A stretch of 64,000 bases of DNA. It comes from Chrysomallon squamiferum. Taxonomy: Eukaryota > Animalia > Mollusca. This document shows positions 300 to 14,600 of this stretch, one piece after another. Positions within the stretch are counted from its first letter, which is position 1. Every line of letters begins with the position of its first letter. Position numbers and translations under genes: made by a program. The notes below the pieces were generated by a model. It saw only the letters and a program-made list of their open reading frames with translations, did no database searches and had not been told where the DNA came from. The stretch is from contig CM022674.1 of the NCBI GenBank assembly GCA_012295275.1, positions 4,588,001-4,652,000 on the forward strand. The letters run 5' to 3'.

Positions 300-1729
300 A
301 CGTTGATATGTATGGTAGTCGAATTCAAGCAACAGGTGTACAATCCTTGACTAAATGTGGAAAGATGAGTTATAGAGTCCTTGTAGAACAGTTAGACGAT
401 GGAAAAAGAATAAATGTAATGTTTATCGTTTATGGACCTAAGCAAAACTCTTGTAAGTAATTTCAACTTAACTAAGAGTAGCAATGCTTTTCTAATAATA
501 ATAATAATAATAATAATAATCATAATAATAATAATAATAATAATAATGATGATAATGATGATGATGATGATGATGATGGTGCTGATGATGATAATAACAA
601 CAACAATAACAACATCAATAACAACAACAACAACAACAACAACAACTACACAACGGTGATGGTGACTATAAAAGAGCAAGAGACCATGATGATGACTAAC
701 ATCAAGATGGTTTTAATGATTTGGATAATAGCATCATTGTCCTTGTGTTTCTTTCATTCGGTTTTATTGTAGTTTGATCCTAAATATCTGAGTTACTATT
801 TATTTTTGTAAGGTAGCAGTAAATTTGTGGTATGTTCACGATTGCATTGACGTCTACGAATGTTATAAATCATTTTTTTTTTTTTTTTTTTTTCTTAAGC
901 TTGTATAGTTACGAAAGGAAAAGATTGCTTGAAGAAAGGTGAAATGTCTGGAGAAAACGGCTTATTTCAGATTTGTAGTAATACAGGCGTGTTGAAGACA
1001 AATGTTCGCGGTAACAATCATTGTTTCTACCAAATATTTTCAAATATATTTTGTATCTGAATCGGAGTATGATACCCACCGAGACATTGGTAAATAATAC
1101 AGGTTTGGAGATATACACCCTGTATAAAACTGTCTCATATTTTGCTTACTATCGATAGCTTTCTATCCCATACGTTCAAATCAACCAAACAATAATTGTA
1201 GAGACATTGGAAGCATATGAGTATTTTAACCTGTTCTTCTTCCTAACAAAACTTTTTAAAACAATGGATATGACAGTTCATGTTTTCACTTCAGAGTGTT
1301 AGTCGATCATTCTTGTTAACATTCAAACTCAGTCACACACGCAAAAAGACTGATCATAAAAAAAAAAAAGAAAACAAAACAATTCTATCATAGACAACAA
1401 GACCTAACTTTTCGAAACATTTTAACAGAACGATGAGAGTTATTTTTCTGAAACACTTATCTCGCAGTTTTTACATTTTCTCTTTTGTCTGAGAATTTTT
1501 TTTTTTTTCGATTTTTTTATGTATTATATTTTGATACTTTCAGTAATCAATCTGACGCCGTGTTATATTCGATCTATTTATTTTTCTTGTTTCATTGATT
1601 TCAGGTTGCAAATACAAAGGCAATTGTGTCAAACCATACACAAGATTCCATGGTGGTCCCTGGTGGTGGTACTACCCTTGTACTTGCAAAGATAATGGAG
1701 TTTTGGATTGTCTTTATAAGTTTTTCTGA
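300..1729 (+). CDS. Secreted Cys-rich protein, paralogue A (5' exons lie outside the window); exons 300-452, 900-1010, 1605-1729
   Basis: Canonical ag/gt boundaries, all phase 1, one continuous frame: VDMYGSRIQATGVQSLTKCGKMSYRVLVEQLDDGKRINVMFIVYGPKQNS-SCIVTKGKDCLKKGEMSGENGLFQICSNTGVLKTNVR-GCKYKGNCVKPYTRFHGGPWWWYYPCTCKDNGVLDCLYKFF*. AATAAA at 1734-1739. Exon-for-exon homology to paralogues B and C. Confidence 0.85.
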
Positions 1730-3006
1730 TGGTAATAAAATTTAACTGACGGGAATGGTGTATATTCTTTGATCTTGCTCTGTACCGAGCGAGAAATATT
1801 ATGTTTAGCTAATACGTGAGATTTGATTTCTTAATATATAAACACAAAGTGATAGATACAGATATGCACACATTCCGACGTACGGACAGATAGACGTAGT
1901 CTCATTTATACACACACACACAAACACGCGCGCACACACACACACACAAACACATACACTCAGACACACAGATTCAGACATGGAGACACATATATACAGA
2001 AATAAACAGATGTAGATTGAAACACGTAGATACGAATACTGAATGGTCATTAGCAGTACAGTTTATCTGTATACATCCTAGTAACATGTAGCAGTAGTTA
2101 GAAATAACCTCATGTTGTCCATAATGCTGACAGATATGTGGTACACTTTCTTAATACTAACAGCAACTGTTCCATTAGGGAAAATAAATCTGTATTTCAT
2201 GATGAAAAGTCTAAAATATTATTAAGTAATATCTATCTATCTATCTATCTATCTATCTATCTATCTATCTATCTATCTATCTGTCTATCTATCTATCTAT
2301 CTATCTATCTATCTATCTATATATCAGTCTATAAATCTATCTATCTATCTATCTATATATCTATCTATTTATCTATCTATCTATCTATATAACAAAGACA
2401 AAATAAACAATAAACAAATAGAATAATTTAATACAGCTAAAATAATGTAATTGCAGCTTGGATGTAAACAGAATGTTCAGTTTCTCAAGAGACAATTAGC
2501 AGAACCGTGTGTCAAGACACCAGTTGAACTCAATAAGCAACACACGTTCAGTAAAGCCAAGTTTGCAGTAGAGTTTGTCGTACCTGTATATATACATACA
2601 TACATACATACATACATACATACATACATACATACATACATACATACATACATACATACATACATATACATACATACATAGATACATTCATACATACATA
2701 TGTACACACATGCATTCGAATTTATTTAATTAACATTAATTAAACTTATCATTATGTCCGGTTAAGAAAAAAGCTCTTAGTTTATTATGACAAGAAATCA
2801 TTTAATTCGTATATTGTTTAAATTTGTTACCAATCGATTCACTTCTATCTCGTGACTGCACAGATATTTGTCCAACATATACTTAACCAAACAACATTAG
2901 CAAGATTTTGTAAATGACTTAAGCTTCCAAATAAATTAAAATGAAACGGTAAAGCTTCGCCCTGTCGCTGTGAATAATGGAAATAACACCATCTGTTTTA
3001 TATCGC

Positions 3007-3340
3007 ATGCCTCTATGGCTTAACGGAATATCAACGTCTCGAAGCAATGGGACGGGTTAACGCTGGCCAACACGTACACGACGTCGCTCAGCACTTTCTT
3101 GTTCATGTCAGTACCATATCACGACCCCGATATCATGCATAAATAGGTTTATCCTACTAGAGGTATATAACAGGTAAATGTATCGATGTTTGTCATGCGG
3201 ATACAACCCAAATATCGGTAACTGACTCGAAATATTCAGTCATCCCCAGAAACCTAGAGAGGAACTCATCACACGGAATGTCCAAAAGTTCTTCCAGCGG
3301 TATATGTCTATGTATCGTTTGCGTACTAACAGTAAATCAG
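3007..3340 (+). mobile_element. Degenerate, internally deleted Tc1/mariner transposase remnant
   Basis: 3020-3124 translates LTEYQRLEAMGRVNAGQHVHDVAQHFLVHVSTISR, resembling the Tc1 N-terminal HTH. A decayed C-terminal-like piece (PRNL..EL..RYMSM) lies at ~3245-3325. TIRs not identified. Confidence 0.65.
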
Positions 3341-11510: not shown

Positions 11511-11693
11511 TCGATACACTAGTACGTGTCTCTTTCCGCACATCTGAATGTGTGCATATCTGTATCTGTCACTTTGTGTTTATATGTTAAGAAACCAAAT
11601 CTCACGTATTACCTTTGTACAGCTAAACATAATACTTCTCACTCTGTACAGAAGAACGTCAAAGAATACACTGTCACCGTCAGTTAAATTTTC

Positions 11694-14600
11694 TTATCGT
11701 CGGTTAACCCTATAATTACATATCAAAACTCCATCACTTCTGCAAGTACAAGGGTAACTCCATACCACTGGGCCTCTGTAGAATTTCTCATGTGGTTTGT
11801 AACACCTACCGTTCTCCTTGCAACCTGAAATCAAAGAAACAAGAAAAATACACATCTGAAGCACACTACCTCGGCTCGGCAGTTTCATTACTGAAAGTGT
11901 CTAAACATATTTCTTAATAACCGGAAAAAAAAATACAATTTCAGACTAGAAAGAAAAAATAAACAGTGCTAGTTAGCTATTTCAGAAAAATAACTCTCAT
12001 CGTTCTGTTAAAATGGTCGGAAAAGTTAGGTCCTGTTGTCTATGACAGAATTGTTTTGTTTTCTTTCGTTTTCTATTGACAGTCGTTTTGCGTGTGTGAC
12101 TGAGTTTGAATGTTAACAAGAATGATCGACTAACACCCTGAAGTGAAAACATGAACTGTAATATCCATTGTTTTAAAATATTTTGCTAGGAAGGAGAACA
12201 GGTTAAAATACTCATATGGTTGCCCTTTCTCTGCAAGTAATCTTTTGGTTCATTTGAAACGTACGTCATGACAGATTTATAGCGATCTAGTTAACACCAC
12301 CATGGGACTTGTGAGTGGGTGGTTCGTAAAGATGTATGTGATAGTAGCAAGCTATCAGCAGTACGCAAAATATGAGGCAGTTTTATACAGGGTGTATAGC
12401 TCCAAACCTGTATTATCTACCAGTGTCTCGGTGGGTATAACACGCCGATTTTATACGGTATCTAAAATACATTTGAAAACAGTTGATAGAAACAATGATT
12501 GTTACCGCGAACATTTCTCTTTAACACGCCTGTACTACTACAAATCTGAAATATGCAGTTTTCTCCAGACATTTCACCTTTCTTCAAGCAATCTTTTCCT
12601 TTCGTAAATATACAAGCTTAAGAAAAAAAAAAAAGAAAAAAAAAACATGAAACATTTATAACACTCGTAGACAGGATTGCAATGGTGAACATGCCACAAA
12701 ATTACTGCTACATTACAAAAAGAAATAGTAACTAAGATAATTAAAATCAAATTACAATAAAAACGAATGAAAGAAACACAAGGACAATGATAGTATTATT
12801 CAAATCATCATAATCATCTTTATGTTAGTTATCATCATGGTCTCCAGCTCTTTTATAGTCACCATCACCGTTGTGTAGTTGTTGTTGTTGTTGTTTTAGA
12901 GGGATTTGTGTGGGTTTTTTCTTATTCTTATTATTAGCAACAGAGGTAGCACTAGTAACTCTACTAGTACTAACAACAGTACTAAATCATTAGCATCATC
13001 ATCATCAGTATCACTATTAGTAGTAATAGAGGTAGTAGTCTTAGTAGTAGTAGTAGTAGTAGTAGCAGTAGTAATGTAGTATTATGGATACATTACTATT
13101 TTTAGTTAAGTTGAAATTACTTACCAGAGTTTACGTCTGGTCTATAAACGAAAAACTCTACATTTATTCTTTTTCCATCGTCTAACTGTTCTACAAGGAC
13201 TCTATAACTCATCTTTCCACATTTAGTCAAGGATTGTACACCTGTTGCTTGAATTCGACTACCATACATATCAACGTCTGTGGAATAGCAGACAGGGAAA
13301 TCCAATTATAATTTGATTTTATCTGTGCATCTTTCCACACACACACACATACACACACACACACACACATACACACATACACACACATAAACACACACAC
13401 ACAGAGAAAAACATAAAAATCGAACTTTTTTTCTTTCGAAGAAACAAAAAATAAACAAAAACTAACAAAAGAGTCTTAACCGGTGGTATATACGACACAG
13501 ACTACTTCATTGATTGGGACAATGGTGTCGACGACGACCACTACGTTGACAAAATATACGTCAGTTGTGGCCACTATATCGACGCTGTGCATCACTTTGA
13601 CCGATGCCGTCTTTTTTCTTTTTTCCTTTTTTTTTTTACTGACACACACATTAAATTATAAATACATAGAAAATAGTTCAGAGAAAGACACAGACAGAAA
13701 GACAGAGACAGAGAGAGAGAGAGACAGAGAGAGAGAGAGAGAGAGAGAGAGAGAGAGAGAGAGAGAGAGAGAGAGAGAGAGAGAGAGAGAGAGAGAGAGA
13801 GAGAGAGAGAGAGAGAGAGAGAGAGAGAGAGAGAGAGAGAGAGAGAGAGAGAGAGAGAGAGAGAGAGAGAGAGAGAGAGATTTCTAACATACGTTAAATT
13901 ATTGTCTAAAGTAGAAATAATTTTCTAGTTACGACTTTAAAATACACTCCACAAAATTGATTAAATTTTTTGACAATGTGCTTATAAAAGACAATTTAAT
14001 TTATTTGAATAATACGTTTAATGACCTTTCAGGCAAAAGAATTGTGCTAGTAACATCAGCCTTCTAGCAATCTTACTTCTTAATTTACTATATTTCTACA
14101 TAGAAACATTTCTATTTCAGAAAATACTTACAAGAATTACAAGGATCAGCTTGGATACCCCCGTCTTCACAAAAAAGAATAGCTGGCCCATAAAAATGTA
14201 ACTGATGAATTATACTGCCTACTGCATAGTTGCCCCACTCTGTCTCACACTTCTTAGTACCGCTTTGTGAGCTGAACAAAATAATATATAGATCTGTATG
14301 TCTATGTATATGTTCTATTTACCCTTCTACCTTGCCTCCAATTTTTACTTATTGTTCTTATTATCATTATTATTCTTCATTTTACTATTGCTGTTGCTTT
14401 TGTTGTTCAAGTTATCGACGTTCTTTCTGTGGTTTTTCTGTCCTTTTCTTTATTGTGCTGCGTTTCCTTGTTTCTGTTGTCGTCGTTGTTTTTCTGTCGT
14501 TTCTTTCTTGTTTGTTTGTTTGTTGTTTTTTTTTGTTGTTGTTGTTGTTTTTTTTATATATATATATATATATATATATATAAAAATTTAATCATTAGTA

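What the first reader, a model, noticed from the sequence alone, without database searches (positions are those of the whole stretch)
1605..11824. Terminal exon hypervariable between invariant cysteines while adjacent introns stay conserved
Seen, by hand alignment of A (1605-1729) and C (11824-11700): ~43/125 nt and 20/41 residues differ, often by 2-3 nt per codon. Only 4 codons differ synonymously, and all five Cys codons are identical. The loop reads FHGGPWWWYYP (A), FYRGPVVWSYP (C), ESSGWWFTKRT (B). Intron 4 of A (~1215-1350) and C (~12080-12220) shows only scattered substitutions. Known: exons diverging faster than introns on a fixed Cys scaffold is the pattern of conotoxins and other positively selected toxin or recognition proteins. 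Inference: the aromatic-rich loop is a diversifying binding surface.
Basis: partly seen in the sequence, partly recalled or inferred. Interest (0 to 1): 0.8.

Follow-up and report, generated by a model that had tools for sequence, protein, structure and literature searches.

The report
Snail paralogs keep distinct last exons
Three copies of an uncatalogued snail gene, predicted to encode a small secreted cysteine-bridged protein, differ strongly in their last exon while two of them are nearly identical further upstream, likely because DNA was copied between them, so the last exon is likely an old uncopied patch that selection may keep distinct rather than a fast-evolving toxin tip.

Summary
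The exon counts are right: A and C differ at 43/125 nt and 20/40 residues in exon 5, with five fixed Cys. The intron claim is only partly right. The quoted block is the best-conserved part of intron 4 (7/136). The ~160 nt next to the exon differ at 25%, and there A, B and C are equally distant. Upstream, A and C share a 179-nt identical tract, the mark of gene conversion. Site-model support for positive selection disappears once each exon has its own branch lengths (p=0.14). Selection is not excluded: the divergence peak centres on exon 5, as in red/green opsins, comparisons with B show exon 5 above non-coding DNA, and 5 of 5 variants seen in other samples change amino acids. The genes are gastropod, have no detected homologues, and are predicted to carry FnI/VWC-like modules. 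They are not conotoxins, and C may be decaying.

The parts
300..452 (+). Gene A exon 3 (153 nt, phase 1-1); earlier exons would lie before the window start
   Evidence: AG/GT ends and open frame; intron 2 is 471 and 854 nt in B and C
240..418 (+). 179-nt tract identical between A and C (C about 13337-13159): inferred recent gene conversion
   Evidence: permutation p=0.0002
900..1010 (+). Gene A exon 4 (111 nt, phase 1-1), 6/111 differences from C
1215..1350 (+).
1440..1779 (+). Island of old divergence around exon 5; in its intronic part A-C, A-B and B-C differ by 25%, 27% and 27%
1605..1729 (+). Gene A exon 5 coding part: 40-residue five-Cys module, predicted FnI/VWC-N-like beta fold; AATAAA at 1734-1739
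   Evidence: sequence
5208..5289 (+). Gene B putative first coding exon with a hydrophobic signal-like N-terminus; weak donor; an acceptor just upstream suggests an earlier exon
5745..5897 (+). Gene B exon 2 (153 nt, phase 1-1), predicted all-beta module (pLDDT 84)
6369..6521 (+). Gene B exon 3
7049..7162 (+). Gene B exon 4 (114 nt)
7788..7900 (+). Gene B exon 5 coding part; the full B model is an open 204-residue frame; AATAAA at 7948-7953
   Evidence: sequence
8150..10076 (-). Relic D: a copy of the 5' flank of these genes with no detectable exons
11694..11824 (-). Gene C exon 5 coding part to its stop; the polyA-signal position reads AAGAAA in the window
12506..12616 (-). Gene C exon 4
13125..13277 (-). 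Gene C exon 3
14132..14271 (-). Gene C exon 2, 140 nt (13 nt shorter than in B), out of frame at the acceptor homologous to B's
14646..14727 (-). Gene C putative first coding exon, signal-like; 26/81 nt differ from B

Best explanation
A, B and C are paralogues of an uncatalogued gastropod gene predicted to encode a secreted protein of about 200 residues built from small disulfide-held beta modules, and exon 5 likely sits in an old patch that escaped the gene conversion that likely homogenised A and C upstream, probably because selection favours keeping different terminal modules. Shown: three copies with matching exon structure, A and B in tandem and C inverted; strongly uneven A-C similarity; a roughly 340-nt segment whose intronic part is equally distant among the three copies; fixed cysteines and an intact frame in exons 3-5. 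Inferred: conversion as the cause of the mosaic; secretion; an FnI/VWC-like fold; binding of a partner protein (microbial, gamete or host) through the variable strands and loop; selection against overwriting exon 5, as at exon 5 of the red/green opsins. Exons 4 and 5 likely also evolved somewhat faster than neutral in the older split from B.
For: 179 identical A-C sites in a row among 1235 compared (p=0.0002), and non-coding A-C divergence from 0/60 to 41/162 (chi2 45, df 7; blocks partly drawn after seeing the data). A-C divergence climbs 5%, 11%, 25%, peaks at 34% in exon 5, then falls to 27% and 11%. Exon-5 A-C dS of 0.55-0.66 is of the order of A-B dS over exons 3-5 (0.37-0.39), while exons 3+4 A-C dS is 0.04. 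Against a GC-adjusted expectation from the most diverged non-coding block, exon 5 differs more in A-B (52/108 vs 36%, p=0.049) and B-C (58/108 vs 34%, p=0.0009). One in-frame indel in exons 3-5 against 26 gap events outside them. Variants in other runs: 2 of 2 in C exon 5 and 3 of 3 in the first 36 nt of a B-type exon 5 change amino acids. Fold searches for exon 5 and exon 2 both put FnI, MSMB or VWC modules at the top (Z up to 4.4). Precedent: PMC3924837 (passages).
Against: No codon test is significant once mosaic history is allowed for: M2a vs M1a p=0.51 on exon 5 and p=0.14 on exons 3-5 with exon-specific branch lengths. A-C exon 5 (38/108) does not exceed its own flank after GC adjustment (31%, p=0.52). 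The island reaches 165 nt into the intron, and a second small island lies at the end of exon 3 (10 differences in the last 34 nt). 5 of 5 nonsynonymous variants has probability 0.30 under neutrality, and 3/36 vs 0/56 gives p=0.057. C has a frameshift at the homologous exon-2 acceptor and a non-canonical polyA signal, so selection on C today is doubtful. Fold matches are weak (no Foldseek E below 0.001; Z under 5). Splicing and secretion are predicted only.
Confidence: 0.5

Rival explanations
1. Neutral mosaic with relaxed constraint. Conversion tracts fell by chance, the exon-5 region became too divergent to pair and stayed old, and the protein is constrained only at cysteines and frame, with C now decaying.
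For: M1a (14% of sites fixed, 86% neutral) is not rejected. A-C exon 5 matches its GC-adjusted flank. Differences are spread evenly over codon positions, 13/11/14 of 36. C carries a frameshift and a weak polyA signal.
Against: Pooled exons differ more than non-coding DNA in A-B (147/389 vs 227/971) and B-C (153/389 vs 210/971), p=1e-7 and 8e-11, although conversion should not spare exons unless selection does. Intron alignment bias may explain part of this. The peak is centred on the exon.
Confidence: 0.3
2. One reading: A and C are young duplicates whose exon 5 alone was driven apart by recurrent positive selection, as in conotoxins, with synonymous sites raised by multiple hits or local hypermutation.
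For: 43/125 in exon 5 vs 85/591 in intron 4 (p=7e-7). Many codons differ at 2-3 positions. A-B exon 5 gives dN/dS 2.3-2.9 by counting (bootstrap p 0.005-0.026) and 4.0-6.6 by ML (p 0.08-0.10).
Against: The flanking intron is as diverged between A and C (25%) as between either and B (27%), which selection on the exon does not predict for a young pair. A-C dN/dS is 0.75-0.83. At fourfold sites A and C differ at 3 of 8 in exon 5 vs 1 of 28 in exons 3-4. The signal region is not conserved.
Confidence: 0.15
3. Assembly artefact: the C-D block is a second haplotype joined in inverted orientation, or the identical tract is a collapsed repeat.
For: C is an inverted near-copy of A, and one tract is 100% identical. 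No listed contig spans the whole cluster.
Against: Contigs that match A, B and C closely are each present in independent runs X1, X2 and X5 (0-5 other letters over several hundred nt for most), and C exon 5 is covered in X2, X3, X4 and X6. 14% intron divergence is high for alleles.
Confidence: 0.05

Closest known systems
Human red/green opsin genes, exon-5 divergence peak under gene conversion (PMC3924837, passages; islands of divergence also in PMC3728101, abstract)
   Same: Nearby paralogues, homogenised flanks, and a peak of divergence centred on one exon.
   Different: For opsins the functional sites and the cross-species tree switch are shown. Here there is no orthologue, no known function, and one copy may be broken.
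MSMB/PSP94 paralogues of marmoset and snake small serum proteins (PMC2746217, PMC6609765, passages)
   Same: Tandem copies of small secreted Cys-rich genes with exons more diverged than introns, and pseudogenes in the cluster. Chicken MSMB3 is among the top fold matches (Z 3.8 and 4.3).
   Different: No Pfam or sequence match to MSMB. At least five exons here against four in marmoset MSMB. dN/dS above 1 is not shown here.
Conotoxin precursors (PMC3862624, PMC7551347, passages)
   Same: Gastropod, fixed cysteines, variable residues between them, variable region in the last exon.
   Different: About 200 residues in five or more exons rather than signal/pro/mature in two or three. The signal region is as diverged as the rest. 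All exons differ strongly from B. The host is closer to Haliotis than to neogastropods by its calsyntenin.
Fibronectin type I module / N-terminal half of the VWC domain
   Same: The predicted beta fold of exons 5 and 2 aligns best with FnI and VWC modules; weak Pfam VWC2L_1st hit (E=0.086). Symmetric phase 1-1 exons are typical of extracellular modules (recalled).
   Different: All matches are below significance. Exon 5 has five Cys and ends at a stop where a VWC domain would continue (VWC pattern recalled).
Abalone sperm lysin and Sp18
   Same: Vetigastropod secreted proteins whose nonsynonymous rate exceeds the intron rate (title seen in the reference list of PMC2704960; the paper itself not read).
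   Different: Lysin is a helical protein compared between orthologues (recalled); no similarity to it was found here.

Membership tests
Conotoxin precursors | Highly conserved signal peptide within a superfamily | tested here: not met
   B vs C first coding exon 26/81 nt different; feature from PMC7551347 passage
Conotoxin precursors | One to three exons matching signal, pro and mature regions | tested here: not met
   Five predicted coding exons, 204 aa in B; feature from PMC3862624 and PMC7551347 passages
Conotoxin precursors | Position-specific conservation of Cys codons in a hypervariable region | tested here: inconclusive
   5/5 identical in A-C, 4/5 with B; chance probability 0.17-0.47
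Conotoxin precursors | dN/dS above 1 in the variable exon | tested here: inconclusive
   A-C 0.75-0.83; A-B above 1 but ML p 0.08-0.10; site test p=0.51
Conotoxin precursors | Venom-duct expression | not testable with these tools
   No RNA holder listed
Divergence peak kept under gene conversion (opsin type) | Conversion tracts between the paralogues | tested here: met
   179-nt identical run and uneven non-coding divergence
Divergence peak kept under gene conversion (opsin type) | Peak centred on an exon and falling off in both flanks | tested here: met
   5, 11, 25, 34, 27, 11% across the region
Divergence peak kept under gene conversion (opsin type) | Exon groups by gene and introns by species across orthologues; functional difference at the peak | not testable with these tools
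   No orthologue found; no genome held
VWC domain | Two subdomains with ten cysteines (recalled) | tested here: not met
   Exon 5 has five Cys and then a stop
VWC N-terminal half / FnI module | Profile match and fold | tested here: inconclusive
   VWC2L_1st 13.2 bits against cut-off 27; FnI Z 4.4, rmsd 2.3, 40 aligned; model pLDDT 68
MSMB/PSP94 | Profile match and two-domain fold | tested here: inconclusive
   No such family among Pfam hits of 14 single-exon or intron queries; single-exon models match MSMB3 at Z 3.8 (rmsd 1.8, 36 aligned) and 4.3 (rmsd 2.8, 41 aligned); whole protein not folded

The most novel reading that the evidence does not exclude
The cluster is a module-shuffling recognition system. 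Gene conversion keeps re-pairing a shared front end (exons 3-4) with old, selectively retained terminal binding modules (exon 5), and the inverted C-D block comes and goes between individuals, so each snail carries its own set of specificities in an undescribed secreted protein family that may sort microbes or gametes.
Probability: 0.15. Interest if true: 0.65.

Novelty: new member of a known kind. Interest (0 to 1): 0.33.

Why it matters
The protein family has no detected relative, so it adds an orphan secreted family to gastropods. The evolutionary pattern (exons more diverged than introns in a converting cluster) is well described elsewhere. If selection does shield exon 5, the peak points to the functional surface of an unknown protein and gives a ready test. 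The case also shows how an exon-versus-intron contrast and a pooled site test (p=0.003 falling to 0.14) can mimic toxin-like positive selection when paralogues are mosaics.

Tried and rejected
Homologue searches, all on single exons: exon-5 and exon-2 alignments against longer proteins gave 0 of 2 and 0 of 73 candidates at E<=10. The exon-3 profile against 1.84 billion representatives gave 32 hits; the 10 examined were prokaryotic-type repeat proteins matched by a short repeated motif, so I rejected them (22 not examined). Metagenome scans: 0 of 188 and 0 of 225 pattern matches confirmed. ESM Atlas: no usable hit for exon 5, only sub-0.9 unrelated hits for exon 2. PDB sequence search: one chance SH3 hit, E=1.6. 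These blanks are weak evidence because the queries are 40-50 residues. hhalign found no similarity between exons 2, 4 and 5, so internal repetition is not shown by sequence. No further copies in the window by tblastn. Intron 4 has a stretch with few stops in one frame; read through with X it matched no Pfam family, so a hidden exon is unsupported. CpG hypermutation was rejected: 2 of 43 differences involve CpG. The pooled M2a result (p=0.003) was rejected after allowing exon-specific branch lengths. B-C exon-5 ML estimates were saturated and not used. No RNA holder was listed. Contig depth over C and D was lower than over B in the runs laid, and X7 had no cover over part of C; depth is no copy number, so this is a lead only. 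Literature searches for a description of such a gastropod family found nothing relevant; most subscription papers are not in the library, and no supplements were read.
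Full report
Setting. The window is AT-rich and full of microsatellites. A calsyntenin exon further along is closest to Haliotis asinina (71%), then Patella (62%), with the neogastropod Babylonia at 58%. The host is therefore a gastropod, likely a vetigastropod or near relative (inference). No whole genome is held.

Anatomy. Self-comparison shows three related genes: A (+, its 5' part before the window), B (+) and C (-), plus an exonless copy of the 5' flank, D, between B and C. 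Exons were placed by AG/GT ends and open frames. B gives an open 204-residue frame over five exons with a hydrophobic N-terminus. Exons 2-4 are phase 1-1. The first-exon donors are weak and an upstream exon may exist, so the 5' end is uncertain. C exon 2 is 13 nt shorter than B's and out of frame at the homologous acceptor, though a weaker upstream acceptor could keep the frame; the window's C also reads AAGAAA where A has AATAAA, while the haplotype in runs X2-X4 has AATAAA. C may be decaying, but this is open. Exons 3-5 hold one in-frame indel against 26 gap events outside them (one of the 26 lies just past B's earlier stop), so these exons were under selection for frame for most of their history.

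Observation. The exon-5 counts are confirmed: 43/125 nt, 20/40 residues, 4 synonymous-only codons, 5 identical Cys codons. The intron comparison used the best-conserved block (7/136), about 255 nt from the exon. All of intron 4 differs at 85/591 and its last 120 aligned sites at 30/120. Exon 5 exceeds the whole intron (p=7e-7) but not the adjacent part (p=0.12). The Cys-codon identity is within chance (0.17-0.47).

Mosaic history. In a three-way alignment, A and C share states against B through intron 2, most of exon 3, exon 4 and mid-intron 4, including 179 consecutive identical sites (permutation p=0.0002). From about 1440 to 1604 the three pairwise distances become equal (25%, 27%, 27%); A-C is 34% in exon 5, 27% just after the stop and 11% beyond 1780. 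Non-coding A-C divergence alone is strongly uneven (chi2 45, df 7; blocks partly chosen after seeing the data). Exon 5 thus lies in a segment about as old as the split from B, while the upstream parts were homogenised more recently. Gene conversion is the inferred cause.

Selection tests. For A-C exon 5, counting gives pS 0.39, pN 0.34, dN/dS 0.83 (1.03 with kappa 2); ML gives 0.75-0.81 with dS 0.62-0.66 (p 0.57-0.67 against 1). After adjusting for GC content, A-C exon 5 (38/108) does not exceed its flank (31%, p=0.52). M2a against M1a gave p=0.51 on exon 5, 0.045 on exons 3+4 and 0.003 on exons 3-5 with one tree, but 0.14 with exon-specific branch lengths. On the other side, pooled exons differ from B far more than non-coding DNA does (38-39% vs 22-23%). 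Against the most diverged non-coding block, GC-adjusted, exon 5 is still higher for A-B (p=0.049) and B-C (p=0.0009), exon 4 is not (p=0.21, 0.13) and exon 3 is not. The stretch between the second and third Cys changes most (9, 14 and 15 of 17 residues). In other runs, both listed variants in C exon 5 change residues (Ser to Arg in the loop, Ile to Leu; X2, X3, X4; X6 matches the window), against 2 substitutions in 185 nt of adjacent intron in X2. A B-type contig in X4 has 3 amino-acid changes in the first 36 nt of exon 5 and none seen in 56 intron nt. These counts are suggestive, not significant (0.30 and 0.057). One search listed no variant in exon 5 of A or B, but its table hid 326 rows.

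What the protein is. No homologue was found, with the limit that only single exons could be searched. AlphaFold models of exon 5 (pLDDT 68; strands 13-16, 23-27, 33-35) and exon 2 (pLDDT 84) are all-beta. Their best structural matches are FnI modules, MSMB3 and VWC-type domains (Z up to 4.4 and 4.3; no Foldseek E below 0.001), and Pfam gives a sub-threshold VWC2L_1st hit for C exon 5. The aromatic loop falls between two predicted strands, so it is likely exposed (inference; exposure not measured). FnI, VWC and MSMB modules bind other proteins (recalled), so a secreted binding protein is the most likely role. Its partner is unknown, and nothing points to a toxin.

Mechanism. Best reading (0.5): conversion between nearby copies overwrote most of A and C, while exon 5 and its flanks stayed old, probably because selection keeps different terminal modules. 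This is the pattern described for red/green opsin exon 5 (PMC3924837, passages) and it predicts high dS together with high dN.

Comparison and verdict. It is not a conotoxin: gene structure and signal conservation fail (PMC3862624 and PMC7551347, passages). It behaves like known converting or fast-diverging clusters of secreted genes: marmoset MSMB (PMC2746217, passages), snake small serum proteins (PMC6609765, passages) and copepod GOT1 islands (PMC3728101, abstract). The abalone lysin precedent was seen only as a reference title. Two searches found no description of this family. It is a new member of a known kind: an orphan family with a real but confounded signal. Interest 0.33.

Noticed in passing
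window 8150-17100: The inverted D-C block showed lower contig depth than gene B in the runs laid, and part of C had no cover in X7. It may be a presence/absence variant; depth of contigs cannot show this.
   Followed up: partly
window 1012-1350, 7163-7570, 12060-12504: Intron 4 of all three genes has a stretch with few stop codons in one sense frame that reads like decayed coding sequence; no Pfam match.
   Followed up: partly
window 419-452 vs 13158-13125: A second small divergence island: 10 A-C differences in the last 34 nt of exon 3, right after the 179-nt identical tract and next to a microsatellite; some C states match B.
   Followed up: partly
window 3560-3890, 4700-5170, 8700-9180, 10170-11390, 15450-15710, 16690-17080: A degenerate tandem repeat of about 35 nt flanks each gene copy on both strands and may promote the duplications.
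   Followed up: no
window 33122-33544 and 36219-36642: Inverted repeat of about 420 nt, 89-95% identical, enclosing about 2.7 kb of low-complexity DNA; possibly a non-autonomous DNA transposon.
   Followed up: no
window 42531-44589 (-): Leucine-rich-repeat plus Ig-like transmembrane gene read in two overlapping frames (42531-43910 and 43543-44589), suggesting a frameshift or small intron; domain names are from reading the translation, not from a search.
   Followed up: no
window about 50150-59050 (+): Calsyntenin-1 gene, used here for taxonomy (71% to Haliotis asinina over one exon).
   Followed up: partly
window 23023-23188 and 31923-32089: A 167-nt inverted pair at 89% identity, likely a short dispersed repeat.
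   Followed up: no
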